Positions 1 through 50,106 of a stretch of 50,106 nt of DNA are shown one piece after another. A program made the position numbers and the translations under genes. The notes beneath the pieces are model-generated. The model worked only from the letters and a program-made list of their open reading frames with translations, was not told where the DNA came from and searched no databases. Location of the stretch: IMG/VR virus record IMGVR_UViG_3300005860_000041, positions 1 through 50,106 of that record. One strand, written 5' to 3'. Source of the stretch: a virus. Lineage: Duplodnaviria; Caudoviricetes. Numbering within the stretch: the first letter of the stretch is position 1; every line of letters starts with the position of its first letter.

Positions 1-64
1 TTTCTGGCGCTATTGGCGATAGAAGGTTTTCCCAGTCTCGCTGCATTATAAGCTCGTCCTTCAT
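1..64 (-). CDS. 5' part of a second copy of the 1635..2018 gene (MKDELIMQRDWENLLSPIAPE...), truncated by the window edge
   Basis: 1-136 equals 1955-2090 with 2 mismatches; RBS GGAGGGGAG. Confidence 0.8.
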   Translation of the reverse strand, partial: MKDELIMQRDWENLLSPIAPE

Positions 65-100
65 TTCACTCCCCTCCGTTGGTTTTGGTTTACAGTCCGT

Positions 101-197
101 CATACATAATACACGCTCATAAAAAACGATGCGGCTGAGGCGTGTAACGCGCCGTGAATGCGCCTCAGCCGCATCATTATGTGTCTATGTTATGTGC
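101..197 (-). repeat. Cassette boundary module U0 (motif 101-126, hairpin 128-175, TATGTG tract 176-196)
   Basis: 118-190 identical to 1544-1616; arms GATGCGGCTGAGGCG/CGCCTCAGCCGCATC. Confidence 0.9.
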
Positions 198-211
198 CGG
201 GTTCGTTCTAA

Positions 212-916
212 CTATGAATTGTCAACTTCATCTTCATCATAATCATACGAACATGGACCATCACACTTCCAATGTGATGCTACATCTTCTTCATACAATT
301 GTCCATCTTTGTAGTAAAAGCGAGTTGTCCGCCACCACTCTTGATGCCCCCAACATTGTGCCAACATTACGAATTTCTCCCCTGTCTCTGGATCTTCTAC
401 TAATATGTCATAACTGTGAGGCACGTTGGATGAACCAAACTCAGTGACTTCCCATTCTGCTTCATTAGCGTGGGGAGGTATGATGAGGTAATGAGAATAG
501 ACACTTGTACTTTGAGTGTGTGAAAACCAAGGTGCACGACTGATGAGGTGAGGAACGTTTTCAATTACATAGCAGTTACGGATGGGTTTAACTACGAAGC
601 TGGTTCGCTCACTGTAAGAGTAAAAGTCACTGCTCTGTGTGTTATACTTGAACACCTTGAAGCCCCGTTGAGTTAGCAGTTTTTCTATGTCGAAATTGAA
701 AACCTCGTGATGATGTTTGTAGTTGTCATAAACATACGAGTGTTCAAATGTGAAAGTCTGTCCGGGTAATGTTAACTGCCACGTTTCGCGATATTCATAA
801 AGCTCATGGCAGGGTGTAGAAGTGTGATTGCACTTGCCTGTGTGACAATCACAATCACAGGGAAGCGCGCTTTTAACTGATTTAACGCGTTCAAGTTTTG
901 CCGCCATGCTAACCAT
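212..916 (-). CDS. Hypothetical cassette protein with Cys/His-rich N-terminus and acidic C-terminus (234 aa)
   Basis: ORF track 212..1027; RBS AAGGAGG at 926-932 places the start at 916; CDCDCHTGKCNH motif. Confidence 0.8.
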   Translation of the reverse strand: MVSMAAKLERVKSVKSALPCDCDCHTGKCNHTSTPCHELYEYRETWQLTLPGQTFTFEHSYVYDNYKHHHEVFNFDIEKLLTQRGFKVFKYNTQSSDFYSYSERTSFVVKPIRNCYVIENVPHLISRAPWFSHTQSTSVYSHYLIIPPHANEAEWEVTEFGSSNVPHSYDILVEDPETGEKFVMLAQCWGHQEWWRTTRFYYKDGQLYEEDVASHWKCDGPCSYDYDEDEVDNS

Positions 917-969
917 GCTAACCCACCTCCTTGTGGTTTGTGTGTAGACTAACATACCCGCATCCTGCA

Positions 970-1008
970 GTTTCAATCCCACCAATCCCACAATGGTGCG
1001 ATTGCACC
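970..1008 (-). CRISPR. Solitary CRISPR-repeat-like sequence with an internal 9-bp duplication (not an array)
   Basis: Collapsing the CAATCCCAC duplication gives the 30-mer GGTGCAATCGCACCATTGTGGGATTGAAAC, which has the 3' ATTGAAAC end typical of class 1 repeats. Confidence 0.65.
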
Positions 1009-1087
1009 GGGGCTGGTGAGGGCTCAACCCCCACCAGCCCCGGGAACGACTGGCGTGGGCTCGCTATGTGACGAGTTCCCACGCCAG
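1007..1087 (-). terminator. Two tandem GC-rich hairpins (1007-1043, 1050-1087)
   Basis: CCGGGGCTGGTG/CACCAGCCCCGG and CTGGCGTGGG/CCCACGCCAG. The second is identical to the hairpin at 49843-49887 and carries CTATGTG in its loop. Confidence 0.65.
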
Positions 1088-1096
1088 CCTTTGTCT

Positions 1097-1489
1097 TTAC
1101 TCAACTTCTTGCACAAGCGGAATTTCTTCAACGTGTCCATCACTGTGTATCCTGTATCGCTCTATTTTGTATTCACACATCCGATTGCCCATCCACGCGT
1201 CCACTATCTTTTCGACAACCATTGTGCCTGGGAAGGAGCCAAGTAACGCTCGTATCCTCTTGTTCTCGTAAGGATGAGGAATGTCAAGTTGTTCTACCTT
1301 CACGTCTGTAGGATAAATGATACTATATCTCACACGTCTCTCGACTGTTGCATCTTCCGTTTCCTCTTCTATCAAGCAGACGGCAATGGCTCCGTTCTCC
1401 AACTCCACCAGCGCATTCTGATTTATTAACCTTGCCCGCAGCGCTTTTACAACTTCGTCCCACCCTGGCGCTTTGTAGCGCTTAAACAT
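1097..1489 (-). CDS. Hypothetical cassette protein, paralog of 49906..50106
   Basis: 130-aa ORF, RBS GGAGGTGA, shared C-terminus RYRxHSDxHxEEIPLVQEVE. Confidence 0.85.
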   Translation of the reverse strand: MFKRYKAPGWDEVVKALRARLINQNALVELENGAIAVCLIEEETEDATVERRVRYSIIYPTDVKVEQLDIPHPYENKRIRALLGSFPGTMVVEKIVDAWMGNRMCEYKIERYRIHSDGHVEEIPLVQEVE

Positions 1490-1526
1490 ACTCGCTCACC
1501 TCCGTGGGTTTTGGTTTACAGCTCGT

Positions 1527-1641
1527 CATACACAATACACGCCCATAAAAAACGATGCGGCTGAGGCGTGTAACGCGCCGTGAATGCGCCTCAGCCGCAT
1601 CATTATGTGTCTATGTGTCTATGTTATGTGTCTATTATGTG
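1527..1641 (-). repeat. Cassette boundary module U1 (motif 1527-1552, hairpin 1554-1601, TATGTG tract 1603-1641)
   Basis: Same tripartite layout as U0 and U2-U4. Confidence 0.9.
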
Positions 1642-2018
1642 CTGGGAACTGCAACATAAACTTTTCGTTTTATCCTCAGTTCCATACCAGTTCCGTCCCA
1701 TATCTCTACCGCTACCGCATCTCCTGCTGCCAGCGTTACCTCTGTTTGTATAAACCTACCTCCCGCCGTTCCCGCTTGCCAGCTTCTTACTCCTACCTGT
1801 CGTTCGCGTGGCTTTCCTGCCACAACCCACCACGTTGCCTTATACCATGCAATTGACGAAGACGATGACCCGGCACTAAGCTCCAGCTTCGTCCCTGCGC
1901 GAACAGCGCAGATGACGAAGCCGTCCGCCTCTAATTTTTTCAATTCTTTTACAGTTTCTGGCGCTATTGGCGATAGAAGTTTTTCCCAGTCTCGCTGCAT
2001 TATAAGCTCGTCCTTCAT
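1635..2018 (-). CDS. Hypothetical cassette protein (MKDELIMQRD..., 127 aa)
   Basis: RBS GGAGGTGA before ATG at 2018; the longer ORF-track start runs through the repeat; ends ACA-TAA. Confidence 0.85.
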   Translation of the reverse strand: MKDELIMQRDWEKLLSPIAPETVKELKKLEADGFVICAVRAGTKLELSAGSSSSSIAWYKATWWVVAGKPRERQVGVRSWQAGTAGGRFIQTEVTLAAGDAVAVEIWDGTGMELRIKRKVYVAVPST

Positions 2019-2054
2019 TTCACTCACCTCCGTTGGTTTTGGTTTACAGTCCGT

Positions 2055-2163
2055 CATACATAATACACGCTCATAAAAAACGATGCGGCTCAGCCGCATC
2101 CATGAACGTATTATGCGGCTGAGCCGCATCATTATGTGTCTCTATATGTGTTTATCTCTATGT
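2055..2163 (-). repeat. Cassette boundary module U2 (hairpin 2082-2130 with inverted loop)
   Basis: Motif 2055-2080; loop CCATGAACGTATT is the reverse complement of the U4 loop. Confidence 0.9.
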
Positions 2164-2204
2164 AGAAGGAGCGGTGGCGGTAGCACAATACCACCACCGC
2201 CACC
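2164..2204 (-). ncRNA. Candidate small RNA (gene-less cassette): hairpin followed by CUCCUUCU
   Basis: Lies between modules U3 and U2 with no RBS or credible ORF; stem GGTGGCGGT/ACCGCCACC is extendable by G-U pairs on the transcribed strand. Confidence 0.35.
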
Positions 2205-2296
2205 ATATACACGCCCATAAAACGATGCGGCTGAGGCGCATAACACGTTCATGGATGCGCCTCAGCCGTGCTATGTGTCTATGTGCTATGTTATGT
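2204..2296 (-). repeat. Cassette boundary module U3
   Basis: Motif variant TTTATGGGCGTGTATA, hairpin 2225-2270, TATGTG tract 2271-2296. Confidence 0.9.
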
Positions 2297-2641
2297 TTCT
2301 TCTTTAAGTGCTTCACATTCCTTCCCATCAAAATGCCAATCCACCCACGTCCAATCCCACACCATTGGATTTCCTTCCGCGAGCATCCTACCACATTGTT
2401 TACACCAAATTTCCTCCTTCAACTGCTCTCCATTCAGTAACTCGTAGACGTAGATTAATTCATTGTCATCCAGCAATTGCTCCTCCACCACCACCTCTCC
2501 GCCATTTCGAAGCTCCTTGTATACTTTTTCCCTACACCTATCACAGAGAGTGAGAGTTCTCTCTCCACCCTTTGCTACTATCTTCATACCCCACCGTGCT
2601 TCCTTATTGCACCTATCGCACCTATCGCACACCGCCATCAT
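2291..2641 (-). CDS. Zinc-finger-like cassette protein
   Basis: CDRCDRC, CDRC and CKQC motifs; RBS GGAGGTGA; ends ACA-TAA. Confidence 0.85.
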   Translation of the reverse strand: MMAVCDRCDRCNKEARWGMKIVAKGGERTLTLCDRCREKVYKELRNGGEVVVEEQLLDDNELIYVYELLNGEQLKEEIWCKQCGRMLAEGNPMVWDWTWVDWHFDGKECEALKEET

Positions 2642-2709
2642 ATTTCACCTCCACATGGTTTTGTTTTTGTGGGCATGTTAGCCCACAATCCCACACAGGT
2701 TGGGCTCGT

Positions 2710-2820
2710 CATACACAATACACGCCCATAAAAACTGACACGGTTGAGGCGCATAATACGTTCATGGATGCGCCTCAGCCGTGCTATGTGTCTATGTGCT
2801 ATGTGTCTACGTGCTATGTG
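2710..2820 (-). repeat. Cassette boundary module U4
   Basis: Motif 2710-2734, hairpin 2739-2783, TATGTG tract 2784-2820. Confidence 0.9.
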
Positions 2821-3917
2821 TCCATATACGTTGGCATCACCACATAACGCATTGATGCTACTATAAAGAGTGGCGAATGGTTATTCTCGTAATGAACGGT
2901 AACAACCTCACCGCCAAACAACTTAGCGATGTTGTGCAGGAATTTAGCATTCATGGCAAAAGTATCTTTCTCTATCCCAGAATGCACAACACTAATGTCC
3001 ACTACCGCACGTGAGGCAACTTGTTCATCCTCTGAGCGGTATTCAAGCATCATTTTTGAACCTTGGATGTCAAGTGTCACATAAATTCGTGGCATTCTTT
3101 CTTCTTTTGGGATAGGAAAACTATTCACAACGGCTAAATCGGAGGCATTCAAAGTAAAAACAACGGATGAATTTTCTCGCCTAATCCGGCGCCAGTCAGG
3201 GTAGTTATCTTTTTCGGTTAGCGAGACTATCCGAGTGGCATTGGTTCTCAGTTCGATATTATTATTACTGTATCCTGTAACAACAACGCTACCATCACGG
3301 ATAACTTTAGCCAGTCTTTTAGCTGTTGCATGTGACAAGACTAACGATTTTTTGTCTATTATGTGACCAGTGCCTGATAAACGCTGAACAAGCTGAACAA
3401 GTAGTTGGCGAGTATCCGTAGAAACTACAAATAGACCAAACTCGCATGGTTCTACTAAAATATGATGCAAAACTCCACATGTTTCATCTTCAGCAACACA
3501 CATCAGTGCTTTCGTCAGCGCATCAGCAAACTGCCTTGCATCAAATGTGTATTGCCAAACAACGTCACCTAAAGTAGAGAGAATTGGAAATTCACGAGGA
3601 TTAATTACGCTTAGTGTTGTTGTAATATTGCCAGTCTGGATGTCAATTTTATCGCCATGGAGGTTAAATACCACATCGTCAGTATACTCCAGCGCTTTCA
3701 AATCATTATAGGACACGCAAAAACTTTCCTCTGCATCAGCGACAGCGTCAATTTCAGTAACGAAGTAGTCCCTTATGTCCGTTGCGACAATCTCCAGTTT
3801 ACCTTCGTGTGTAGTAAATTTGACAGTGTATAGTGCAGGTAGTGGCGACTTACGAGGAATGAATTTCCCCGCATTTGACAGTGCTTTTTTGAGTTCACGT
3901 CCATTAACCTTAATCAT
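2814..3917 (-). CDS. dnaN: DNA polymerase III beta sliding clamp homolog (367 aa)
   Basis: Length and motifs: ELKKAL..KSPLPAL, LEIVATD, EFPIL, VSTDTRQL, NYPDWRRI, AMNAKFL, PLFI..YVVMP. Confidence 0.88.
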   Translation of the reverse strand: MIKVNGRELKKALSNAGKFIPRKSPLPALYTVKFTTHEGKLEIVATDIRDYFVTEIDAVADAEESFCVSYNDLKALEYTDDVVFNLHGDKIDIQTGNITTTLSVINPREFPILSTLGDVVWQYTFDARQFADALTKALMCVAEDETCGVLHHILVEPCEFGLFVVSTDTRQLLVQLVQRLSGTGHIIDKKSLVLSHATAKRLAKVIRDGSVVVTGYSNNNIELRTNATRIVSLTEKDNYPDWRRIRRENSSVVFTLNASDLAVVNSFPIPKEERMPRIYVTLDIQGSKMMLEYRSEDEQVASRAVVDISVVHSGIEKDTFAMNAKFLHNIAKLFGGEVVTVHYENNHSPLFIVASMRYVVMPTYMDT

Positions 3918-3953
3918 ATTCACCACCCCTTTTTTTAGTTTAGGATACCGCGC

Positions 3954-4044
3954 CATACTTAATACCCGCCCATAAAGTGTTGGGTGGCATGCGAATGCCT
4001 TTTCGCATGCCACCCAGCGGTGTTTATGTGTCTATGTGTTATGT
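3954..4044 (-). repeat. Cassette boundary module U5
   Basis: Motif TTTATGGGCGGGTATT, hairpin 3979-4018 of unrelated sequence, TATGTG tract. Confidence 0.85.
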
Positions 4045-4278
4045 TGTGTTACTTTCATCTTCCGTTCTTTCGGCAAGTATCCGACACCTCTCATCATCAT
4101 GGTCTACGTTGACGACACGCGTCAGCGTGTCGCCAATATACCACCGCACTCCTCCATACCAGCAAACCCTTTCAAGCTCAATTTCCTCCTCGTCCTCTCG
4201 CTTCGTCCACCACGGGTTTGCTGGACGTGCTTCAAGCCACTCTCCGCAGTGTGGGCATTTCTTTACCCACCATTTCAT
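4039..4278 (-). CDS. Small acidic zinc-ribbon-like cassette protein
   Basis: CPHC motif; RBS AGGAGGTGA; ends ACA-TAA. Confidence 0.85.
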   Translation of the reverse strand: MKWWVKKCPHCGEWLEARPANPWWTKREDEEEIELERVCWYGGVRWYIGDTLTRVVNVDHDDERCRILAERTEDESNTT

Positions 4279-4303
4279 GATACTTCACCTCCTTATAAAT
4301 GAT

Positions 4304-4362
4304 GCACGGTTGGGAGCGCACAATGAACTTCTGTGCGCTCTCAACCGTGTGCTATGTTATGT
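4304..4362 (-). repeat. Cassette boundary module U6 (hairpin plus TATGT tract, no promoter-like motif)
   Basis: GCACGGTTGGGAGCGCACA/TGTGCGCTCTCAACCGTGT; arm start CACGGTTG shared with U4. Confidence 0.8.
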
Positions 4363-4438
4363 TTCTTCTTTAAGTGCTTCACATTCCTTCCCATCAAATG
4401 GTTTTGTTTTTGTGGGCATGTTAGCCCACAATCCCACA
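4351..4438 (-). pseudogene. Internally deleted copy of the 2291..2641 cassette (3' end fused to its 5' leader)
   Basis: 4351-4398 matches about 2285-2332 and 4398-4438 matches about 2655-2695; junction at an ATG microhomology. Confidence 0.85.
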
Positions 4439-4459
4439 ATCCCACAATGGTGCGATTGC
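4437..4459 (-). CRISPR. Second, 3'-truncated CRISPR-repeat-like sequence
   Basis: CAATCCCACAATGGTGCGATTGC is identical to 983-1005 and adjoins hairpin 4463-4504. Confidence 0.55.
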
Positions 4460-4513
4460 GAAGGATGGCGCGAGCGCGACACAAAAGATGCGCTCGCGCC
4501 ATCCGTATGTGTT

Positions 4514-4930
4514 CTATTGGTCAATTTGTTCAAGATAAATGTAAAGCTCTCTTAGCGGATGAGTGTCAGACACATACTCTACCACCACGTCTGCGATTGC
4601 CATTATTTTCTCTTGTAACTGTCGCAGTTTACTAACAAGCTCCTGCCTGACATCCCACAATGCCCCGCAAGCAACAAACATTAAGACCGGATCCCTATCG
4701 AATTTGTCTTGTGCTTCGCCTAAAGCATTATAAACAATTGTTTCAGAATGTGAAAGTAAGTCTAACAAGCTCAGTATCTTGTCGCCCAACTCATCCCAGC
4801 TATCGTTGACCCAATCAAACTTGATACCAGCGAAAGCGGTCGTAAGCGTCTGCGGTCCCATAGCCATATATGTCCATCTGGCTCCCTTAATGATGGGATA
4901 CAGCAGTTCGCATCGTTCCTCTTTTGTCAT
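4514..4930 (-). CDS. Hypothetical helical cassette protein
   Basis: ORF track 4514..4939; RBS GGAGGTGA before ATG at 4930. Confidence 0.8.
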   Translation of the reverse strand: MTKEERCELLYPIIKGARWTYMAMGPQTLTTAFAGIKFDWVNDSWDELGDKILSLLDLLSHSETIVYNALGEAQDKFDRDPVLMFVACGALWDVRQELVSKLRQLQEKIMAIADVVVEYVSDTHPLRELYIYLEQIDQ

Positions 4931-4988
4931 TTTATTCACCTCCGTTTTTGTGCGGGCTTGTTATCCCGCACCTTACTTCAGTTGCCGT

Positions 4989-5081
4989 CATATGTAATAC
5001 TCGCTCATAAAACTTAAAGGGCGACACACAGTTGCAGGGTGTGTCGCCCTTTAAAGGTCGTATGCTATCTATGTGTCTATG
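4989..5081 (-). repeat. Cassette boundary module U8
   Basis: Motif TTTATGAGCGAGTATT, 16-bp perfect stem 5014-5054, TATGTG tract. Confidence 0.85.
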
Positions 5082-6071: not shown

Positions 6072-7115
6072 TTATGTGCCATTAGGCGATGCTTTCTTCT
6101 TTAGCTCCTCTAAGAATGGGCGGAGCTTCTGTTTATAGAACTCTTGTGCCTTCCAAGGCTTATTTGATGCCACAATCTCCGCCCATTCCCTTCCGAGGCG
6201 CTCCAGCTCTTGGCGCTCCGGATCTGATACTTCTGGTGAGCTATAAATTTTTGTCATCAGCTTTACGACTGCTGCGATTGCTTCATTCTTCTTCGCAACA
6301 TCAGCGAGCTTTCTTTGTAGGAACTGCGGGAATGGTTCTTCTTCAACTGGTGCGTCAAGCACTCCTTCAATCAGTGCAACTGCGTCAGTGCTTGTTACCA
6401 CCGTTGGTGCTTCGTCAACTTCAACTGGGAGTTCTTGTGGTCTCTCTGTTGTTGCTAAGTTTAGCCGTTTTAGCAGTTCTTCTGCTTCTGCCGGGAACAC
6501 TGTGTTGTGTAGTGTTGGGATGCGTGCTCCAACATTGCCTGCTGCGGGCGAGAATGAGACTTGGTAAACTAACCTACCTTCCACAACCTGCACACTAATG
6601 TTACCTATCGCATCGCACTCTGCCAGAACAGCTCGCCCAGTCTTACCCGGCAGGTCCACAGTTGATGCACCAGCTTCCAATCCTGGCTTTACATGGATGA
6701 GGAACACAACGAGCTGGAAGCACTTTCGTAGTGCCCTAATCCAGTCGACGATACTGATACGTGCCAGCGCGAAGCCCTTGCCATACGCCGCCTTCTCAAT
6801 GTCTGTTCCAATTTGTGCTTCGACATAGTTTGACAGCAAATCGTAGGCGGCGTCAAGGGTGTCGATGACAATGCACGGATACTTACCACCAAACTCACTC
6901 GGTATCGCTAACAATTCCTCCCAAGTCTCAGGCTGAATGCCATCGACGTGGAAGGGAAGGAAGTCCGTCCCCTTTTCAATGTCCACAACCAGCCCACCAA
7001 GGGCGCGGGCAACTTTTGCACCAAATGTCGTCTTCCCGCCCTTTGGTGGTCCATAGACGGCGATGGTCGCATGCTTGATTGGCTGTTTCCCGAGCTTCTT
7101 CACTTGCAGGCTCAT
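6072..7115 (-). CDS. Sak4-like/AAA_24 P-loop ATPase (phage recombination protein)
   Basis: Walker A YGPPKGGKTT, DIEKGT, Walker B IVIDTLD, FLIH, DAIG; ends ACA-TAA. Confidence 0.8.
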   Translation of the reverse strand: MSLQVKKLGKQPIKHATIAVYGPPKGGKTTFGAKVARALGGLVVDIEKGTDFLPFHVDGIQPETWEELLAIPSEFGGKYPCIVIDTLDAAYDLLSNYVEAQIGTDIEKAAYGKGFALARISIVDWIRALRKCFQLVVFLIHVKPGLEAGASTVDLPGKTGRAVLAECDAIGNISVQVVEGRLVYQVSFSPAAGNVGARIPTLHNTVFPAEAEELLKRLNLATTERPQELPVEVDEAPTVVTSTDAVALIEGVLDAPVEEEPFPQFLQRKLADVAKKNEAIAAVVKLMTKIYSSPEVSDPERQELERLGREWAEIVASNKPWKAQEFYKQKLRPFLEELKKKASPNGT

Positions 7116-7157
7116 ACACATCACCCCTCCTTGTGATGTAGGTTTGGGCGTTCACCC

Positions 7158-11298: not shown

Positions 11299-12742
11299 CA
11301 CTCTCACCCTCTTCATCTCCAAATGTTAACCTGTCCACTTTTATTATGCCACGTGATGTTCGCATTTGTCTAACCCCTTTCAAGTCTTTCTTTGTAGCCT
11401 CTTCGGGCTCCGGTTCTTCACTATACCCTGGTGCTGTAATTATACCACGCGATGCAAGGTTCGGTATGACTTTCTCTGCGCGCTCTGTTGCATCTTCTGC
11501 TCTGTAGTAAATATCACTATCACATTTTATCTTCTGTGCAACCTCAAGTGCTTTATCTCTTGCTTCAGCTATTGTTTCACCAAACGATGCCACTTCGCAA
11601 ATGATTGCATCTGTGCCTGCACAACGAAGCTCACCATTCTTGATGTAAACATCCATCGGAAAGATTTCTACATCCTCAGGTGTGTCTGGAAATTCAACAT
11701 ACACATCTTTGGCAAACACTTCATAGAGCTTCTCAACCTCTTGTGAAACCGCTTCACTACCCTCAAGTGGATACGGCGGTATGGACACTCTAATTGCAAA
11801 CCCATAACCCTTCCTTAAGTTCATCACAACTTCTTCTCCAGCTGCAGCTTTGTAAAGCACCTCACCAAATTCTTGTGTGCGCCCCATCAACATGAGTAAA
11901 CAAAAGATTGCATTGTAACCAAACCTACTACCACACCATTCAAGGAAGAACGGATTGCCACCCCTGTGGCTCACTATTGTGTTTGCATCCCACGCACCAC
12001 TTTCATTCGCAGCTGCAAGCATCGGCGCAATCTTCTTATGCGTCTCTTGAACAAGTAGGTCGTCTGGTCCTGCAGCAAACACAATTGAAGTTTGACAACC
12101 TGTGTTCGGTCCTAAATCACCAGGTGCAAACTTCTTCGTCTCAACTGTGTAGTTGATTGAACCAGGTATTGGCTTGCCATTTGAATACCACACTTCCGTG
12201 CTTATTTCGTGCCCCGGAACAAAGTCTTGCACAATGAATGACTTAGCATCAACCAAGTAACCCGCCTCTTGTTGCCTCATAAGCCATCGTGCTGCAGCCT
12301 CTGGATTTTGTGCCACATATGATGACGCACACGCAACCCTACCTGAAAGCTTAATGACAACCTTCCTGTTATGCTTGATGATGTAATCTACTGCCTCGTT
12401 CACATCTTTAAATACACGCGTGTATGGAACACGAATGCCCGACGCTAATGCCATCGCTAACCCAAAATGCCTATCCTCTTCCGCTCTATCACCAAGCGCT
12501 GTGCCGTTGAAAACCTTCTTCCCAGACTTACGAAGGTCTTCCATCACCTTGGATAAACCAGTCTCATCACTAAAATACACATCAAAGTCGTCAGGCACCT
12601 TGTCAAACTTCGGCACTAAACCATCATACAAATGCTTGCACGACCTTGACATTATGACAGCTGCAATTTGATGCCCCTCGTCCCTTAAGCGCAAAAGTAA
12701 TGGTAATCCTGGACCACTCTTTGTGATGAGACAAAACTTCAT
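11285..12742 (-). CDS. Divergent PurD (phosphoribosylamine-glycine ligase)-like ATP-grasp protein
   Basis: VVIKLSG, IVQDFVPGHEIS, GDLGPNTG, LEW..SRFG and a GARS-C-like tail (GETIAEARDKA..DIYYR); no GxGGREH motif. Confidence 0.8.
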   Translation of the reverse strand: MKFCLITKSGPGLPLLLRLRDEGHQIAAVIMSRSCKHLYDGLVPKFDKVPDDFDVYFSDETGLSKVMEDLRKSGKKVFNGTALGDRAEEDRHFGLAMALASGIRVPYTRVFKDVNEAVDYIIKHNRKVVIKLSGRVACASSYVAQNPEAAARWLMRQQEAGYLVDAKSFIVQDFVPGHEISTEVWYSNGKPIPGSINYTVETKKFAPGDLGPNTGCQTSIVFAAGPDDLLVQETHKKIAPMLAAANESGAWDANTIVSHRGGNPFFLEWCGSRFGYNAIFCLLMLMGRTQEFGEVLYKAAAGEEVVMNLRKGYGFAIRVSIPPYPLEGSEAVSQEVEKLYEVFAKDVYVEFPDTPEDVEIFPMDVYIKNGELRCAGTDAIICEVASFGETIAEARDKALEVAQKIKCDSDIYYRAEDATERAEKVIPNLASRGIITAPGYSEEPEPEEATKKDLKGVRQMRTSRGIIKVDRLTFGDEEGESDESD

Positions 12743-15700
12743 TCTTCTTCACCCCCCAGTCCATACTTTGCTGGGACTGGCTGTATTTGGGCTTCTGCCT
12801 TAGCCTTTTTGAGTATTTCTTTTTCTTCTTCATGGATTTCTTTTAACCTTTCAAGAGCCTTCAAGAGCATATCAAGCGAAACATATGTCTTTTTCTTCTC
12901 ACGAAGTGTTTCAGACTTGCGCGCATATTCTTCAAGTGTAGCAATAAGCGGTGAATTCCTATTCATTTCGCTCACCAAGAACCTACGCACATTGTAAAAG
13001 CGTATTCCAGAAAGTAATATGTCGCGCAAAATTGCAGTCGCTTGCTCTGGTGTAACTTTGTCAGGCTTTGGCATCCTTGAAAGTAATGCCTCACGCTTGA
13101 CTTCATCTGGCGCAGTCATGTGTATGATGTGAGCGTATGTTAGTGCTTCACCAGTAAATGGTGCGCCTCGCAAGACATAGAGGCTCTGTTGAATGCCATG
13201 TAGTGCCTTGCTTATCTTTGACATCGCCTCCATATCCTCTTTCGTGAACTTAGGCATAAGCGCCTGTATCTTTTCAAGTGAGAGTGCGCCTCGTCCTGCA
13301 CTTGCAACTGTCTCTGGTATCATCGGAGTAAGCCCACCACTTAAAACATGTAACACAATAGAAAAGCCCCACAGGTCTTTCATAATCCTGTCGCCAAATT
13401 CAAACGAGAATATTGGGTTGTCGTATATCATCTTGACAACATCTATTAAGCTTTGCGCTTCCTTCGGATAACGCTTCTTCATTTGCTCCCATTCCGCCCC
13501 TACTTCGCCTACTAACCTAACCGCATCATAAGTGTCGTCAAGTAAGCGCACAATAAAGTCAACTGGTGGCAATGGCAAGAAACCACCACCTGTAGTGCCA
13601 CGCCCATACTCCGCAGGAAGCTCACCAAGCATTGCTCGTAATGCTGTCACTCCACCTGCGATATATTCGCCAAGAAGCTCATCCCAAGTTTGCTTAGCAC
13701 CTTCAATTGCTTGTGCTGCATGCTTCATTTGAAGCTCTGCTCTAAACCTTCCAGTTGCCATGTAAGCCCTGTAAGCAGCGTCACCTGCAATCGGTGGCAC
13801 TACATCAATGAAGATAGAACGCACAAATAGCTTCTTCCAATCATCACTGTGCTCTGCAAGTAACCACGCTAATCCTGCAGCTGCTACCATGTCAACCGTG
13901 ATTGAAGTGATAAAGTTGGTCAATGCCCAAAGCCTCTCCTTTGGCGTCAGTTGCCTGTTCAGCGCCTTGCCAAGCGCATCTAACTGCAAGAATGCTTTGT
14001 TTATACCATATGACTGGAAGAATGTCAAAGCACGGTAAAAGTCTCGCATTGGGTCTTGTGCTAATGCTCGTGGCATGCCACCTGAGACAAGTGGAGCTTG
14101 TGTGATAAGTGATGCTATAGAGGCTCGTTCGCGTGCTATTACAGGGTCTACACCTCTGCCAATCCACTTTAGGTATTCGGCAATGTAGATGACAGCGCGT
14201 GGAACTGCATCGCATACTTTGAACATAAAGTCACCAAGAACGAATGGAAGTTCGTTGGTTGTCCTAATTGCCCTTATTGGGTCTTTGGCAAATTCGTGTA
14301 ATCTATCAATTACCCAGCGTGCCTTCTCGTTGTCGTTTAGCCCTTGTGGTGCAAGCCTTAGAAGGTTGTGATACAAGCCAAACAATGCTTCTGCGTCAAT
14401 TTCAGATATCGCAGGTTGTGAGCCTACAAACTTCTTCACTTCTGGGTCGGCAATGAACAACCACGCAGCTTTGGCTAACCGCTCAACCTTGTCAGGTAGT
14501 GGCTCTGTTGGCTCATAAGCGAAATAAGAACCCCACGACATGCTCAAGTTTTTGAGTAGCACCGTCGGTCTGAATGTGATGATGGTCTTACCAGTGAGGG
14601 CAAAGAGCGTATCTATCATCCTTTCCCAAACTCGTGCGCTTCTCCCTGCAAGGTCGTAGTATGGACGGTAGCCAACTTGTTGGAAGGCAACATTTTTAAT
14701 CTCGTCAGCAAGCTGTCTATATTGGTTTGCCAAGTTTATTGCATCTGGCGTCCCTTGTTGCTCAAGCTTAGTTGCACCTTTGTAAAGAGCCTTCATGAGC
14801 CTATCTTGTGAGTATGCGTGTGGCATTTCAAGTGCCATATGAACAATGCCACGCACAGCCCTATAAGCGGTGGTGAATGGGTCTTCCCAACCAAGAACAT
14901 TCTCAATGACACGGCGCGGTATGCCTGCTATTGGCACATGCTTTTGTGAAAGTAGCCTCAAAGCTTCTTCAACTGTTGTTGGCTCAAACTCTCGTTGCGG
15001 TATTATCGTCTTCATGAAGCGTCGTCCTTCAAGCATTGCCCTGTAAATGTCAGCGCTCGGAGAACCCATAGCGCGTGCAATCCATTCCAGCGCACCTGCC
15101 TTCAAAACACCACTAAACGAAGTGTCCCAATGATGCGGTGCCCAAAATGCCAAGTGTGCCATCGGCGGTCGTATGGTTTGGTAGAATGGGTAAGCACGAA
15201 CAACATCGTTGTATAACTTATAAGCCTTGTATGAGCCTACAAGGAAATAAACACTCGCTTTTTGAAACCTCTGTAATTCGTCAGCTGACAACTTAATATC
15301 AATAGGTTGTATAGTGCCAGCACCCATAAACGCATTGTAAGTAAACTGCGCATTCTTGCGCATAATACCCGCAAGTGTCGTATCTGGCACACCTATTTGC
15401 TGTATCAAGACATTGAGCACTTGTCCACGACGCACACCATGTAACCTTGCAAGTAAGTCTACAAGGTCGCTTTGTAAAACATTGTGTGCCGGGTCTTTTG
15501 AGCCAGCTGCCTCAGCTCGCTCAAACCTTAACACTAACTCCCGTATGAGCTTCTCGTTGAGCTGTGCTAAATCGTCAACAGTTAGGCGCCTGCCACTTAG
15601 CGATGCAATGCGCCTGTGAATGTCATCAAAGACATTACGCATGTTCTCATGCCATAATTGCCACCTCACCTTTAATAATGGGTGGGTGAGTTTCATTCCC

Positions 15701-18700
15701 CACCGTCGCAAAATATCACTCACTCTAACCCGCGCACTTTCTGGGTTTTTACCACCCTCTAAGACATGCTCTGCTGCTGCAAAGTAACCAAATAGCTTCG
15801 GTAGCAGCTCAGTGCGCATGCGCCTGCGTGCTTCAATACCACCACCAATAAGCGTCTGGTAAAGGAATGCTGCAACGGTATCTGCGTCGTAGCGCCCACC
15901 AGAGCGCATCGCAATCTGGTTGGCAATTGCTTTGAGCGCATCATAGGAGCGAAGAAGTGAGTTGCGGAACTTGGCAAGTGCCCTCGGTAGCTCAAATGTT
16001 ACTTGTCCTTCTTCAATTGCCTTCAGTAGGTCGTCAATCACTACATCAATCTCGTGCTGTGGAATGATTTCACCCTTCGATTTGCGGTCAATGATGTAAA
16101 GTAGGTCGCTGGCTGTCGGCGGTGTCCTCAAAACACCCCTCGATGGTTTCGGTGGCGCTGGCGCTGTAAAGCTTTGTTCTACTCTGTCGACAAAGTTCTT
16201 GTATGCAGGCACACGCTTCAACGCTTCATGAGCAAATGGCAAACTCCTAAGCGCAAGGTATAGCCCTGCTAAGCCTTGAAGGGCACTGGAAAACGCTTCA
16301 CCGTAGGCTACTTTAATACCCTCTTCTATAGCTAACGGACCGAGCGGGATAAAGCTCATCGCAGGTAGCTTGTTTATGTCTACAGTTCGTTCTTCTTTCA
16401 TGCCTTCTGGTGCTGGAGCCACAGGAGGCTTAAGCAATATCGGTTGCTCTGGTGCTAACTTGGCTACTTCATCCGCAATGCGCTTCACTTCAGGCAATGC
16501 TTCCCTTAGCTCCCTTATACGTTCAAGCTCCTTAAGTAACGCTTGCTCTTCTTGTTGTAGTTCATTATACTTTGCAATAACATCTGGTCTTGCCTTAGCT
16601 CCAGCTCTATTCAATATCTTTTCAAGCGTTGCAACTTTCCGATGCGTCCACGCAAGTTGTTGTCTAAGTGCCTCTTCTCGTTGCTTGAGACTTTCACCGT
16701 ATTTGTCGATGTTTTGTATGCGCTTTAGTATGTCAATTATCGTCTCATGCAGCGTCAGGTAGGATATAGGTCGTTGTTCAAGTTGTTTTTGTGCCCTTGC
16801 TATTTCATCTTCAAGGTGGTGTATCATACTCCACAGGTTTACAATTGATTTACTGATTACTCGAGAATGCTTTAGTTGCTTTTCAAGTTTCAAACGTTCC
16901 TCATGCAAGCGCTTAAGTTCGGTAGCTAATTCCTTGATGGCTGGCTTGTATTCCATTATTGGGTATGGTGCTGCTTCTTCAGCAGCAGTTAAGACATCTA
17001 TGTAATGGCTCAAAAATTCTATCCGTTGGTCAATCTGCTTTATTATTTCTGGTAACTTTTCAGGCATTGCTTTCTTTTCTGCCTGTAGCTCCTCTATAGC
17101 CTCCCTGAGTGTTTCAATCATCCCACGATGTAGTTTAATCATATCCTCAGGATGTGCGAATTGCTCAATGAAGTAAGCTGGTGCTTGAGTGGTAAGGATG
17201 AAGCTCCTAAATGGTATACTCTTAACATTCTCAACAAGCTTTTCTGTGATTTGGACGACTTGATGAAGTCGTTGCAATGTTTCAGCATCAGCATTTTCTC
17301 TTTCGGCAACAAAAAGCGCATAAGTGCTCGCAGTGTGAAGCGCTGTCACATATCTCTCTAATGCTTCTTTGGTCACAAGGATGCCTTTGTTGGCACTTAG
17401 CTTTGCTAAGTGGTCTGCAGTTATACTTTCAACAGGCTTGATTGAAGATACGTCAACCATCCTTGAAATATCTACAACAAAGCGTGGTGCTGCATAAGTG
17501 CCACCAACTACACGCACAGTTGGCACATATACTCCTTTTTGGGGCTTTTCCGTAACCACTTCAACTTCAGCCTTTGTAGGCTTTTCAAGAAACCTTTCTA
17601 CATCACGAATGTTCTTAAGGTTGCCAAATGCCTTCCCTAATTGTGACAGGTATAGTTGAAGTGCCGATAATTCGCTTAAGCTTTCTGCAAGTGTGAGCAA
17701 ATTCTTACGGTTACCTTCTTGCGCCATCTTCCTTATCTGGTTGTAAATGGTAGTGAGTTGGTCATAGAGCCTCTCTACATCTTTGGCTGGTGGCGCATAC
17801 ATGAGATGTTGCCATAACGAGAAGTAATTCAATACAGTCTCCACTTCTTCTTTAGTGAGCCCACCGGATGCTTCAACAATGGTGTCTTTAAGTGCATTTA
17901 GTGAGCCCCTTAAGGCTCTAAGGTGGGAACCACAGATTGTGTTGAAAACAAAGCGCCGTTGTTGTGCATCTCTGATAAACGGAAGGTTTAGGTGGTTTTC
18001 AAGCTCGTTCAAATAGGCTATAAACAACTCCAGTTTGTTTGCAGGTATACCTTGAGGTGATTGTTGTGCTTGCTGTAAAGCTCGTGAGAGGAACTCAACT
18101 AACGGTGAGGGTGCATGCTCGTCTATACCTATGCGCCGTAACTCATGAAGCATCTTGTTGATAATTTCAGCATTCCAAGGGTCAGTTTGTAAGAGAGTGC
18201 GTGTAACTGCACTTGCGATTGTAGGAACTGTATGAAATTCTTTTTCAACGATTGAGCCAATGTTTGCAACACTTAGCCCAGTTGTTTCATGTGTGTGACG
18301 CAAAAACGATGATGTGGGAATGTCTAAGATATAAATTTCTCTCCCTTTGGTATGCACTTGTGGTGCAAACATTTTGATGCCTACGCCAGTCACTTCGCCC
18401 GCTTCAGCGCGTGCCTCAAGCTCCATCCTGCCACGCATCGCCCGTGCAAGAATAACATCAAGCGCAGTAGCTTCGTGTCGTATCAAGTCAATAAGGTGGC
18501 TAAGGATGCGTGCTGTGCGCCTCGTCACATCAGGTGTTTGCGTAAGCTGTGGGAATTGCCTCCTAAAGAGGTAATTGAGCGTTAGGTTGATGTCCTCTGA
18601 AGATACTTCGTATAAGCTCCGTTGAGAAGTCAGCAAACTAAAGAGGTAATCCTTAAAGAAAGTCTTATCTGGCATTCCTTTGAGGCTCTCTGTAATTCTG

Positions 18701-21700
18701 TCCGAAATTGCCCGAGCAATATCACTCACAATTTGTTTGTTCTGCTCCAAGAACATTACATCACCACTCTCAGCTATCATATGAAGCACTGGTAGCTTGC
18801 TTGTAACAGCTTCGCTTTGTAGCTCTTGCACTATCCCTTTGAGTGCGCTGTTGAAGGTGTTGATACGCGGGAATGATACAAGAAGCTCTCGTGCAATCTC
18901 CCTTGTATGCTCCAAGCGCCATAGGGCGTTCCTAATCACATCCGCAAACTCTTTCTTGCTGACACCAGATGGGAGCTTGTCAGCAAATGCATCAATGTTT
19001 CGCTCAACATACCGTAGCGCTCCTATGAGTGTCCCCAAAGAAGCATAAATGTTTGATACCTTGAGCCAGCTAAATTCATCACTTGCAATGTCTGAGTATA
19101 TCTCAGCAACTTCCTTGAAGGCTTTGGCAAGCGTAGGTTGGTTTCTCTTTTCAAATTCAGTAGATAGCTCTCGCAGTGCCCTGACATAGTTTTGTGCAAC
19201 TTCAGGTCTACTCCACATTGCTTCAAGTAAACTTGGAGTGTAAAACCTCTTAATGCCCGTCCCCGGTATTGTCATCTCACCACTTTCGTGTGTCCCTATG
19301 ATTAACGCTGTCTTTATCACAGGAGATATGCTTGGTGCTGTCTTGTCAATAATTTCAAATACAGCTTCAGGACGACGAATTTTCCTTGACAAGTCGAAGA
19401 ATTCCTCAAAGCCTTTCTTTGGGTCAGACGCTGTAACACCACGAAGCTTCTCAATAGTTAAATTGGTTGTTAGCTCTGGTGGTAAGACTTCGTATTCTTC
19501 ACCTTCTTTGGTTTCTCGCCCTACAACTTCTTCAATTGGAGTAAACTCTACCCTTTCAGATGCTCTCATGCCAACATACTTGTCTCCAACTGTAGACTTG
19601 AACGCTCCTAAGGTAGCAAACATGGAAGCAGATATGAAATCTTCAGTTGTAGCGCCTTTGAAGACCATATTAGCAGTATCATGCCAGCGAGAAAGCCATA
19701 GAAAGTCTTTGTCACCTTCTCTAACTTCTCCGGTGGCATGCCTTGCAATGGTTATCCCCCAAGCTTGCATCGCACGCTCAAGCGTGTCTATCAAATCTTC
19801 CACATTTACAATTTCAATTGGCATTGTAGCTTTTTGTCTTTTTGCCCACGCCTTAGATGTTTTTTCTTCCTCCCTTGCTTCTATTAGTTCTTCAACAACA
19901 TCTGGCGTCATTTCCTCAATCTCTACCAAATGCACCCAGTCTATTTCGGATGCAACCAATGGTTCTCCTCCAACTACTTCTTCTAACTCTTCGGTAGTTT
20001 CTCTCCCAATTTCTTCTGGTGGAATTTCAGGCACACTAACAGGTTTTTTTCTTCGTCGTGTTATTGCTTCAACGACTTCGCTCCGCTCTGGCGCTGTTGG
20101 TTTTTCTTCGCCTCTTACTATGCGGTCAAGCATTCCTCGGTTAACTTTCACCGCAATGTTGAATAAATCGGTAAGTAGTCTGAGCGAGCCCAAAGTCTGG
20201 CTTTCAAGCGCATCAATAGCATCGGTGCGCTCTATACCTTTAGGATACCATAGCTTTTGCCATGCATCACGATGGTCTTCCTTTGGATATGGGAAAAGCG
20301 TGTGGAACAAAAGCATTTTGTAGATTGTCGTGCGCAACGCCGGCAATGCTTCATCTGTAACATGTGAGCTTAGTTCATCTGCAGTTTTAGTCGCAATACC
20401 ATATAGAGCGTTACTAAGTAATGATGCAACCTCTTCGCTGGTTAAAGGTTCACCTCTCTTTTTAGCAAGTTGGCGCGCCAATGTTTCAAGTGAAGACATT
20501 GTAGCCCTTAGAACCTCTTGTTGTGACATCCCCTTGTATTTCTCTATTTGTCGCAGTGCAAGGTCAAAAACTTCATACGGGCTCGGAATGTGCCCAATTA
20601 AAGTCTGCACTAACGGTGATGTGCGCACTTTGCCGTAGGCACTCGTGTATGCATACAGCAAGTGAGACATTGCATGCCCATGCTTAATTTCCCTTATAGT
20701 GGCTAACAAAGCCGTCGGGTCACTGGTCACCGCTAAGCCTCTTATTTCAAGCTCCCTTAGTGCCTCGCTGAATGGCAGGTTGAGGTGCGGATTTGTCCAT
20801 ATAGTGTCAATGGATAATCTTACCTGCTCTTTCAAGCCAGCTTGCTCTGCCGTCTTTATAAGCACATTGAAAGCATCTTGTTCTTTTTCGCCAAGCCATA
20901 ACATCGCCGTCGGTTGCTTCACACCTATTTGTGCTTGCTTCTTTTGCTCCCATGATAGTCTACCCGATGCAAGTCCTTCTTCTGCCTCTAAGGCACTAAA
21001 CAAATCCGCTGCAATGTTGCTCCAAACCTCTCTTCGTTGCTGGGCTTCCATTGCAGGCTCTTCAACTGGTGGTTTAGGTGCTTCTAACTCCTTTGGTGAC
21101 ACCTCTTTAGCCTCTTCACGCTTTGCCACTTTGAAATAACCCATGCTTCTTAGCACTTCTGGTGTTACAGAAGGACTGTATAGCTGTGTCTTAAACCCTT
21201 GTGGCATTTCTATTTGCGGAATAAGAGGCAGTAGTTTATCTCCAACAATGCATGCACGTAACTTTTGATACACTTCTTCCCCATACCTTTGACGAATTTC
21301 GTCACTATGCTTGGTGAAAGTTTCAAGCAAACTTTGAGCTGGTGATTTGAGTATACTCCATCCGGTTGCAACTGGCTCTTCAAACCTAATCCTTGTCCAT
21401 AGTTCTTGCATCGCCTTCATGAATGACGCTTCATTTGGAAATGCATCTTGCCATTGTCGATATAGGTGGCTAATTAACGTGTGTATGGCACCTCTATCCT
21501 CACTTGATAGCTTGTTCCACAAGTCTTGTGATGTAACTACCCTAAATAACATATGGACGCTACTGTCGTAAACTCCATGTGGTGTAGAAGTAGCCATGCC
21601 AATTGGAACATATTCAACAAATTCTGGAGCTCTAAAAATCCTATCCATACTTTCAACCATCTTCTTTACATCTTCAATGCCTATTCGTGGCTCGTCAAAC

Positions 21701-26538: not shown

Positions 26539-26556
26539 GCTCAACCCTCCTCTCTA

Positions 26557-38173: not shown

Positions 38174-39133
38174 TTATGCAGAGCCAACATGGATTACACG
38201 GCACTCACCAGGTTTGTTGCTATCCCAAGTGAGCGCCCAACCACCCATGTAAATCCAGCCAATGACCGTTTGACGACCTAAGTCACGCGTCTCTGACCTG
38301 ATTTCCTCAGGCAGAGCAACGCCTTCAACTAATGGGTCGTCCGCAAAGAATAAAGCCTCGCCAAGCACACCATTTTGCCCAACGGCGTTGTTCAAAGCGT
38401 CTGGGTTGTTGCAGTGCACAAACCTTGTGTTGTAAAGCAAGCCAATCTCATACCTGAACAGACGCTCTGGGTCACCATAGTGGGCAGCTTGCACGAAGTT
38501 ACTGTCGTCAATGATGCCTCGGCGTGCTTTGGTCGTCAGGACACAGACATAGTTCTCACCGTCATAGCCTGGCACATGCAAGTAACCTTGTAAGTAATCA
38601 ACGATGTCCTTGACATGTGCCGTCGTCAAGTTGCTCGTAGCTACGACGGGATTGCCATTGCTGTCCTTGAACTCACCGTTGGTAAGGAACACACCGCCAG
38701 TTGGTGATGTCGGAACATACTTTATCTTTGTCTTCTTGGCAACTGCAGCAATCTCCTTGTCCATCGTAGCCACAATATCGTCACGCAAAGCGTCAACGAT
38801 GTGTGGCTGGATGTCAATCTCAGCTAAGGTTGTCAACCTGAGTGTGCAGGCTGCTGCGTTGCCATACTCATCCACAAGCAAGGTTCCGTAGTCAATCGTG
38901 AACCCTGTCACTGGGATGAGTTCGGTTTCAGCCAGCCTGCGCCCTGACCCAGCCAGACCACTACGGCGTGGGAAACGAATTTCATCGCCCTTATTTTTGC
39001 CGTAGCCCTGAACTGGGCGGACAAATTGACGAAAGACAAATCGTGGTAGTGCTGCCTTGCGAACTTCAGCAGTTAATGATGGCAAGGCGAGCACTCCACC
39101 AAGTCTTGGCACACCGTAAACTTGCGCTGGCAT
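38174..39133 (-). CDS. Major capsid protein (HK97 fold, N4-gp56-like family)
   Basis: FRQFV....GKNKGDEI.FP, EYGNA, YVCVL, EIG..YNTRFV, DLGR...IGW; follows the scaffold gene. Confidence 0.85.
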   Translation of the reverse strand: MPAQVYGVPRLGGVLALPSLTAEVRKAALPRFVFRQFVRPVQGYGKNKGDEIRFPRRSGLAGSGRRLAETELIPVTGFTIDYGTLLVDEYGNAAACTLRLTTLAEIDIQPHIVDALRDDIVATMDKEIAAVAKKTKIKYVPTSPTGGVFLTNGEFKDSNGNPVVATSNLTTAHVKDIVDYLQGYLHVPGYDGENYVCVLTTKARRGIIDDSNFVQAAHYGDPERLFRYEIGLLYNTRFVHCNNPDALNNAVGQNGVLGEALFFADDPLVEGVALPEEIRSETRDLGRQTVIGWIYMGGWALTWDSNKPGECRVIHVGSA

Positions 39134-48335: not shown

Positions 48336-48356
48336 ACTGGCGCGCCGTCTGGTGAC

Positions 48357-49835: not shown

Positions 49836-49891
49836 AAAAAAAGACTGGCGTGGGCTCGCTATGTGACGAGTTCCCACGCCAGCCTTTTTTT
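49836..49891. terminator. Bidirectional terminator identical in stem-loop to 1048-1092
   Basis: A7, stem-loop, T7. Confidence 0.75.
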
Positions 49892-49905
49892 GTCTTTACT
49901 CAACT

Positions 49906-50106
49906 TCACTCAACTTCCTGGACAAGCGGAATTTCTTCGATGTGTGTGTCGGAATGAACCCTGTATCGCTTTACTGTATACCAACGCATCCGGTCGTCCA
50001 CCCACTCTTCCTCCTCTTTTTCGACAACTAAGTGGGAAGTAAGAGGAAACAGTAGCGCACTTATCTTCTTCCCGGCATAAGAAGGAATATCAATCTTTTC
50101 AGGATG
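49906..50106 (-). CDS. 3' part of a paralog of 1097..1489, truncated by the window edge
   Basis: Hand translation ...VVEKEEEEWVDDRMRWYTVKRYRVHSDTHIEEIPLVQEVE*; not in the ORF track. Confidence 0.85.
   Translation of the reverse strand, partial: HPEKIDIPSYAGKKISALLFPLTSHLVVEKEEEEWVDDRMRWYTVKRYRVHSDTHIEEIPLVQEVE

What the first reader, a model, noticed from the sequence alone, without database searches (positions are those of the whole stretch)
1..197. Window start reads as the junction of an excised cassette circle reinserted elsewhere
Seen: 1-136 matches 1955-2090 (gene start plus U2 motif, 2 mismatches) and 118-190 matches 1544-1616 (U1 hairpin and tract). The switch lies in the shared CATAAAAAACGATGCGGCT. 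This is the junction expected if U1 and U2 recombine and loop out 1563-2090. Identity then ends in the TATGTG tract, where a different gene (212..916) is attached. Inference: excision through the motif/hairpin base and reinsertion through the ACATAR tract.
Basis: partly seen in the sequence, partly recalled or inferred. Interest (0 to 1): 0.75.

Follow-up and report, generated by a model that had tools for sequence, protein, structure and literature searches.

The report
Hybrid terminator-promoter cassette at contig end
The first 200 bases of this hot-spring phage contig are a hybrid of the two regulatory cassettes that flank a nearby small gene, followed by the start of a second copy of that gene, which fits the known habit of phages to shuffle small genes by recombining repeated terminator-promoter cassettes rather than anything new in kind.

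Summary
Positions 1-136 match 1955-2090 at 134 of 136, and 118-190 match 1544-1616 at 73 of 73, with the switch inside a shared 19-mer.

The window is a whole 50,106-base linear phage record, so position 1 is a contig end. All genes in this region lie on the minus strand. Read on that strand, 65-211 is an intergenic cassette: a stop-rich ACATAR tract, an 18-bp hairpin with a U run, a conserved box, an AAACC leader and a GGAGG site. It sits between ORFan gene C (212-916) and the first 21 codons of A', a second copy of gene A (1635-2018).

The cassette is a clean chimera. Its terminator half comes from the cassette downstream of A, and its promoter half from the cassette upstream of A.

The other contig end carries the 3' part of B', a 59%-identical paralogue of gene B. 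Relatives show that the two contig ends are neighbours, inside a hyperplastic region where cassette-bounded genes come and go (L009, L010, L011).

This is a close analogue of PeSL-mediated shuffling in T4-type phages. The proposed route, a free circle reinserted through the tract, is possible but not shown. Gene conversion or unequal crossover fit equally well, and the missing approximately 0.6 kb could not be fetched.

The parts
1..64 (-). First 21 codons of A', a second copy of gene A. It runs off the contig end. It differs from A at one base (26, K13N).
65..117 (-). Promoter half of the chimeric cassette c1: conserved box, AAACC leader repeats, GGAGG site (one change at 72). It is of the type found upstream of gene A (U2).
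   Evidence: 6 of 6 informative sites are U2 type
118..136 (.). 19-mer shared by c1, U1 and U2 (U run plus base of the hairpin). This is the interval in which the crossover must lie.
121..178 (-). Terminator-like hairpin (18-bp stem) followed by a U run. Its interior is identical to the hairpin downstream of gene A (U1).
   Evidence: -40.4 kcal/mol, z -5.1; 0 of 200 shuffles as stable
179..197 (-). Stop-rich ACATAR tract of U1 type, lacking one 8-nt unit.
198..211 (-). C-specific 3' untranslated stretch. Likeness to U1 ends here.
212..916 (-). Gene C, 234 aa, no family match. Absent from relative L009. A 98%-identical variant (P0005) exists on another contig.
917..1044 (-). Region upstream of C that L009 lacks. 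It holds a GC hairpin (1010-1042) and a copy of a host CRISPR repeat (970-1006).
1045..1096 (-). Terminator stem T after gene B, repeated at 49840-49907 (92.6%).
1097..1489 (-). Gene B (130 aa).
1490..1634 (-). Cassette U1 (A to B), parent of the terminator half of c1.
1635..2018 (-). Gene A (127 aa).
2019..2165 (-). Cassette U2 (upstream of A), parent of the promoter half of c1.
49840..49905 (-). Terminator T' after B', with an intact U run.
49906..50106 (-). Last 66 codons of B', which runs off the other contig end. The full-length form is P0009 (128 aa), 59.4% identical to B.

Best explanation
Positions 1-211 are not a special element. They are one of at least six copies of a roughly 145-nt terminator-promoter cassette that separates small ORFan genes in the hyperplastic region of an uncultured hot-spring phage.

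This copy is a recombinant. Its tract, hairpin and U run come from the cassette downstream of gene A. Its conserved box, leader and ribosome site, together with the start of the gene that follows, come from the cassette upstream of gene A.

It was made by ordinary homologous recombination between dispersed cassette copies, resolved in the shared 19-mer at 118-136. It places a second copy of A (A') downstream of gene C.

The contig broke inside A'. On the circular map A' is followed, after about 0.6 kb of missing sequence, by B', so the genome carries two A-B modules.

Shown here: the chimera, the cassette anatomy, the adjacency of the two contig ends in relatives, and cassette-bounded gene gain and loss between strains.

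Inferred: that A' is followed by B', and the route of the event. I favour a recent patch transfer (gene conversion or crossover) from U2-A into an older second module, at about 0.4. A free circle that reinserted is about 0.2. The enzyme is probably the phage's Sak4-type annealing protein or the host's RecA, not a site-specific recombinase.
For: - Chimera: 134 of 136 and 73 of 73 identities. 6 of 6 informative sites left of 118 are U2 type and all informative sites from 137 are U1 type.
- Cassette family: the 24-nt box occurs 6 times, against 0.00 expected in 100 shuffles. The box core is conserved in 11 of 11 aligned cassettes, including two from L010.
- Hairpins: all six folded cassettes have hairpins with a U run, z from -3.2 to -6.2. 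L010 keeps the hairpin through a change on both sides of one pair.
- Distant relative: L011 has the same cassette grammar.
- Position 1 is a contig end.
- The other end carries B', 59.4% identical to B, with a 92.6%-identical terminator.
- The ends are adjacent in relatives: L009 runs from B straight into the gene next to the window's far end. In L011 the matching region is internal to a 52,193-nt contig.
- Gene flux at cassettes: L010 has clamp-cassette-A with no gene Z, with the breakpoint after the conserved box. L009 lacks 1044 through 49846, with the breakpoint at the foot of terminator T.
- Other traces of flux in the window: a gene-less cassette at 2166-2290 and an internally deleted copy of Z at 4348-4438.
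- Recombination inside the box: its three variable sites occur in four combinations among five cassettes.
- One Logan contig of run X1 joins the 5' end of A (up to 2046) through extra GGTTTT units to the U1-type promoter (from 1507). This is a second, different A-start/U1 junction (table 5c).
- The junction needs a 21-mer (117-137) that neither parent has, so a de Bruijn assembler cannot have made it without reads that carry it (reasoning).
- Enzymes: no Phage_integrase or Resolvase match in six frames. An AAA_24 protein lies at 6072-7124, and that family is listed as Sak4 annealing proteins in PMC8093625 (passages read).
Against: - The sequence left of position 1 is unknown, so A' may be a short remnant, like the decayed copy of Z.
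- No A-like protein other than P0001, P0007 and P0008 was found. None carries the K13N change, among 20 candidates of 69-223 aa and 1 candidate of 30-68 aa.
- The link A' to B' rests on synteny in relatives, not on sequence.
- The contig could combine two co-occurring strains. L009 is identical to the window over 2753-1158 yet only 78% identical beyond terminator T.
- The conserved box is not a sigma-70 consensus match, so its promoter function is inferred from position and conservation only.
Confidence: 0.68

Rival explanations
1. U1 and U2 recombined and looped out 1563-2090 as a 528-bp circle carrying gene A and one chimeric cassette. The circle then reinserted by recombination in the ACATAR tract downstream of gene C.
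For: - The chimeric cassette has exactly the composition of the circle junction, and the spacing of the repeats is 528.
- A' and its upstream region are 98.5% identical to A, whereas B' is 59% identical to B. This fits a recent arrival of A alone.
- The tract 179-197 is specifically U1-like, not merely family-like.
- Mini-circles made by recombination between flanking promoter/stem-loop cassettes were detected by inverse PCR in T4-type phages, and reinsertion was proposed (PMC2839356; sections 16-20 read as passages).
Against: - No circle, tandem copy or reciprocal junction is seen.
- It needs two events, as the alternatives do.
- The tract offers only about 19 nt of homology.
- Landing directly upstream of a B paralogue, which recreates the A-then-B order seen in L009, L010 and the window, would be a coincidence for a circle that could enter any of ten or so cassettes.
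- No site-specific recombinase is encoded.
Confidence: 0.2
2. Assembly or strain-mixture artefact. The last 100-200 bases of the contig are a tip built from a few chimeric or minority-strain reads, and no single genome carries C-c1-A'.
For: - The feature sits at a contig end inside repeats.
- The community holds several strains that differ exactly here (L009, L010, a 98% variant of C).
- The far end of the contig also stops inside a gene.
Against: - The junction needs reads that carry a 21-mer absent from both parents.
- The two private differences (26, 72) show that 1-117 is not simply the resident U2-A locus.
- An independent contig in X1 shows another junction of the A start with a U1-type promoter.
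Confidence: 0.15
3. Large unequal crossover. Cassette U2 paired with the cassette downstream of C in a sister genome or concatemer and duplicated the whole A-B-T-C block. The assembler collapsed the two copies and stopped inside the repeat.
For: - A single crossover in the shared 19-mer gives C-c1-A.
- It would explain a contig end inside a near-identical repeat.
- 50,106 bases at 96% completeness implies about 52.2 kb. That figure equals the length of relative L011's contig, so it probably rests on that relative.
Against: - It requires the cassette after C to have already been a U1 copy.
- The two private mismatches in 136 nt argue against a fresh identical duplication.
- It does not explain why B' is reached from the other end.
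Confidence: 0.1

Closest known systems
PeSL (promoter-early stem-loop) cassettes of T4-type phages (Arbiol et al. 2010, PMC2839356; Comeau et al. 2014, PMC4122927, abstract only)
   Same: - Short composite terminator/promoter motifs repeated in a hyperplastic region next to ORFans.
- Insertions and deletions between close relatives are bounded by the motifs.
- Recombination between two flanking motifs leaves one chimeric motif.
- No dedicated recombinase.
   Different: - The phage is unrelated: 50 kb, SU10-type portal, no DNA match among 50,697 phage records.
- The order of parts is fixed: stop-rich tract, long hairpin with U run, box, AAACC leader.
- The box is not a sigma-70 consensus.
- Promoter and terminator activity and circles are untested here.
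Morons of lambdoid and other phages (a gene with its own promoter and terminator inserted between two genes; recalled, no paper read)
   Same: A, Z and C are each single small genes preceded by a promoter-like box and followed by a terminator hairpin. Each is present in some relatives and absent in others.
   Different: Here the flanking signals are copies of one repeat family, which supplies the homology for movement. Classical morons have unrelated signals.
Integron gene cassettes
   Same: Small promoter-served gene units that can in principle leave as circles and re-enter at a repeated site.
   Different: No tyrosine recombinase in the contig, no attC-type site tested, and the repeats are transcription signals.

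Membership tests
PeSL-type regulatory cassette | Stable stem-loop able to terminate transcription, in intergenic space | tested here: met
   18-bp stem plus U run, -40.4 kcal/mol, z -5.1, 0 of 200 shuffles as stable. One stem pair in L010 is changed on both sides and still pairs. Termination itself was not assayed.
PeSL-type regulatory cassette | Strong sigma-70-like early promoter within the motif | tested here: inconclusive
   A conserved box follows the U run in 11 of 11 aligned cassettes. The sigma-70 consensus scan did not pick it up, and promoter-like hits were no more frequent than in shuffles (9 found, 10.7 expected). The host is probably an Armatimonadota member whose promoters are not known to me.
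PeSL-type regulatory cassette | Many copies concentrated in a hyperplastic region next to ORFans | tested here: met
   6 box matches, all within 101-5012, with 0 expected. The neighbouring genes have no Pfam family above the curated cut-off and no PHROG family. The region is replaced by other genes in relative L011, while the flanking blocks are 84-98% identical in protein.
PeSL-type regulatory cassette | Insertions and deletions between close relatives bounded by the motifs | tested here: met
   L010 lacks gene Z, with the breakpoint after the box. L009 lacks the C/A'/B' block, with the breakpoint at terminator T.
PeSL-type regulatory cassette | Mini-circles with one chimeric motif physically present | not testable with these tools
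   Only Logan contigs of one run were available. There were no raw reads and no culture.
PeSL-type regulatory cassette | Carried by a T4-type myovirus | tested here: not met
   50-kb genome, SU10-type portal, no DNA match to any deposited phage. It works like a PeSL but is not a member by descent.
Integron-like cassette system | Site-specific tyrosine (or serine) recombinase encoded nearby | tested here: not met
   No six-frame match to PF00589 or PF00239 in the contig. The controls matched in 14 of 14 and 12 of 14 genomes. About 4% of the genome may be missing.

The most novel reading that the evidence does not exclude
The cassettes form a self-contained gene-shuffling system of a hot-spring Armatimonadota phage. 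Single genes leave as small circles by cassette-cassette recombination and re-enter at the stop-rich ACATAR tract, which serves as a frame-proof docking site. The window start would then be a captured reinsertion. The same traffic would have delivered gene C together with a mimic of the host's CRISPR repeat.
Probability: 0.15. Interest if true: 0.6.

Novelty: new member of a known kind. Interest (0 to 1): 0.38.

Why it matters
It extends cassette-mediated modular shuffling, so far documented for T4-type phages, to an unrelated, uncultured thermophilic phage. It also gives a concrete recombinant junction with both parents on the same contig. In practice it marks the contig ends as an unresolved repeat region and not as genome termini, and it shows where strain-variable cargo sits, including a possible anti-CRISPR RNA.

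Tried and rejected
**Relatives and gap sequence**
- No DNA relative among deposited phages.
- No IMG/VR relative was found with proteins C, A, clamp, B or B', or with the box motif. Only the more distant A-like protein P0008 led to a locus, L011.

**Sequencing run X1**
- This was the only run found.
- Word depth was about 1 over 1-268, 6-14 over 269-938 and about 30 elsewhere. Over gene A it was 29-34, against 33-35 for the clamp gene.
- The tool states that contig depth cannot rank parts of a stretch and that uncovered parts prove nothing. X1 also carries a different variant of C. I draw nothing from these figures.

**Other checks**
- Rfam: no family at gathering score in the whole window, and only chance-level microRNA hits on the U2 hairpin.
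- The sigma-70 scan did not find the conserved box.
- The idea that the tract always gives stops in all three frames fails: 5 of 11 tracts do, and 6 of 11 give stops in two frames.
- A direct join of position 1 to 50106 is out of frame and reaches a stop after two codons (my reading), so the contig is not simply circular.
- Supplementary files of the PeSL papers were not seen.

Full report
**What the window is**

The 50,106-base window is a complete IMG/VR virus record, classed as linear and 96% complete. It is a tailed phage with the following genes:
- large terminase at 43909-45318
- SU10-type portal at 42064-43908
- capsid at 38174-39133
- a 4,601-aa ORF with no Pfam domain at 12739-26544
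- an AAA_24 protein at 6072-7124
- a sliding clamp at 2814-4013

Nearly all genes lie on the minus strand, so the finding must be read on that strand. I use these names:
- A = 1635-2018
- B = 1097-1489
- C = 212-916
- Z = 2291-2641
- U1 = the A-to-B spacer, 1490-1634
- U2 = the spacer upstream of A, 2019-2165
- c1 = the spacer 65-211
- A' = the open frame at 64 down to 1

Positions 1-136 equal 1955-2090 at 134 of 136 positions, with mismatches at 26 and 72. Positions 118-190 equal 1544-1616 at 73 of 73. Self-BLAST E-values are 2.9e-67 and 1.8e-49.

In a three-way alignment, 6 of 6 sites between 66 and 117 that distinguish U1 from U2 carry the U2 state in c1. Every distinguishing site from 137 onward carries the U1 state.

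The tract 179-197 matches U1's tract with one 8-nt unit missing. C-specific sequence begins at 198.

**What the cassette is**

On the minus strand each spacer has the same order of parts:
- a stop-rich run of ACATAG/ACATAA units, which often contains the stop codon of the upstream gene
- a GC-rich hairpin of 10-20 bp followed by a U run
- a conserved box
- AAACC-type leader repeats
- a GGAGGTGA site and the start codon

All six folded cassettes give hairpins more stable than shuffled sequence, with z from -3.2 to -6.2. The 24-nt box occurs six times, all between 101 and 5012, against none expected. Its core is conserved in 11 of 11 aligned cassettes.

In L010 one pair of the U1-type stem is changed on both sides and still pairs. 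The distant relative L011 uses the same grammar with different sequences.

The hairpin with its U run is a textbook intrinsic-terminator form. The promoter role of the box is inferred, because the sigma-70 scan did not find it.

**Position 1 is a contig end inside a hyperplastic region**

The other contig end (49906-50106) encodes the last 66 residues of a B-like protein. The full-length form, P0009 (128 aa), exists on a separate 1,097-nt contig. It is 59.4% identical to B. Its terminator region is 92.6% identical to that of B.

Metagenome contig L009 compares with the window as follows:
- It is identical to the window from 2753 down to 1158.
- It differs at 11 sites in 1157-1124.
- It shares terminator T.
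- At 1044 it runs straight into the gene that lies next to the window's far end, at 78% identity.

In relative L011, the blocks that flank both window ends are 84-98% identical in protein to the window's and lie either side of a 7.2-kb variable stretch inside a 52,193-nt contig.

The two window ends are therefore neighbours on the map. The minus-strand order is clamp, Z, A, B, C, c1, A', a gap, B', then the next gene.

A direct join is out of frame, so sequence is missing. If A' is full length and is followed by one cassette, the gap is about 0.6 kb.

**Gene flux at the cassettes**

- L010 has clamp, cassette, an 83% variant of A, cassette, a variant of B, and no Z. The breakpoint lies just after the conserved box.
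- L009 lacks everything from 1044 through the gap to 49846.
- The window itself holds a gene-less cassette at 2166-2290.
- The window also holds a copy of Z reduced to its leader and last 14 codons at 4348-4438. The matching joint 2331 to 2655 was seen in a contig of run X1.
- The three variable sites of the box occur in four combinations among five cassettes, which indicates exchange within the box.
- One X1 contig joins the A start to a U1-type promoter through extra GGTTTT units. This is a second, different junction of the same kind (table 5c).

**How it most likely arose**

The contig has no tyrosine or serine recombinase. It does have an AAA_24 protein, a family treated as Sak4 single-strand annealing proteins (PMC8093625, passages read). 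Homologous recombination or annealing between cassette copies is therefore the likely chemistry.

Any route needs two joints: one in 118-136 and one at 197/198.

It is formally consistent and has a precedent: recombination between flanking PeSLs gives mini-circles with one chimeric PeSL, and re-entry was proposed (PMC2839356; abstract, section 13 and passages of sections 16-21 read).

Against a lone circle stands the fact that A' sits where an A gene is expected, upstream of a B paralogue. This is the order seen in L009, L010 and in the window's first module.

The contrast between 98.5% identity for the A' start and 59% for B' shows that the A' end of the second module is young. I think a recent patch transfer from U2-A into an older second module is somewhat more likely than circle insertion. 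Only the missing sequence can decide.

**Artefact risk**

The junction requires a 21-mer (117-137) that neither parent contains, and 1-117 has two private differences. A graph artefact is therefore unlikely. A tip built from minority-strain or chimeric reads cannot be excluded, because no raw reads were available.

**Comparison with known systems, and verdict**

This is a functional analogue of PeSL cassettes and of morons whose signals form one repeat family. It is not a PeSL by descent.

It is a new example of a known process in a new phage lineage.

**Limits**
- Supplements of the papers were not seen.
- Depth figures from X1 are not used as evidence.

Noticed in passing
window 970-1006 and 4437-4461 (minus strand is the transcribed one): The phage carries copies of a host-type CRISPR repeat. 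4437-4461 is 25 of 25 identical to the 30-nt repeat of arrays in a Candidatus Thermosaccharophagus yellowstonensis MAG (L015). 970-1006 is the whole repeat with a 9-nt internal duplication and altered last bases; on the transcribed strand it ends in ATTGAAAC. The first copy lies in the block that L009 lacks, just upstream of gene C. It is a candidate solitary repeat unit or RNA anti-CRISPR, as described in PMC10651486 (abstract seen)..
   Followed up: partly
window 4551-4585; L064 (G001:C44:179-213): A CRISPR spacer in the Ca. Thermosaccharophagus yellowstonensis MAG (Armatimonadota) matches the phage at 32 of 35 bases. It is flanked by a second 30-nt repeat type. Contigs of run X1 show both repeat types next to phage-matching stretches (before 1468 and 2328, around 2696-2727, and the joint 1006 to 3549). 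The likely host is this Armatimonadota lineage. The same repeat also occurs in bins labelled Chloroflexota, Fervidibacterota and Dadabacteria..
   Followed up: partly
window 4348-4438: An internally deleted second copy of gene Z. Its leader (98% to 2652-2695) is fused to its last 14 codons plus the start of the tract (100% to 2282-2332). The same joint appears in a contig of X1..
   Followed up: partly
window 2166-2290: A cassette with no gene behind it: tract, hairpin, U run and box, then a short GC hairpin (2172-2203), then directly the tract of U2. It looks like the footprint of a lost gene..
   Followed up: no
window 1124-1157 versus L009: 11 mismatches packed into 34 bases at the 3' end of gene B, within 1.7 kb that is otherwise identical between the window and L009. 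The patch matches neither B nor B' fully, so it is a third allele..
   Followed up: partly
window 12739-26544: A single 4,601-aa open frame with no Pfam domain at E 0.001..
   Followed up: partly
window 48350-48780: A GC-rich stretch of degenerate short tandem repeats (self-similarity 73-76%) between the plus-strand gene block and the minus-strand small genes. The long ORFs listed there on both strands are probably not genes..
   Followed up: no
window 28648-29514 and 33141-33524: Internal direct repeats inside two large structural-region ORFs: 408 nt at 73% and 138 nt at 82%..
   Followed up: no
proteins P0001 and P0006 (genes A and Z): The exact A and Z proteins are also recorded on an 80,811-nt contig, which is longer than this genome. 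It may be a concatemer-like assembly or a larger relative, and it might span the gap..
   Followed up: no
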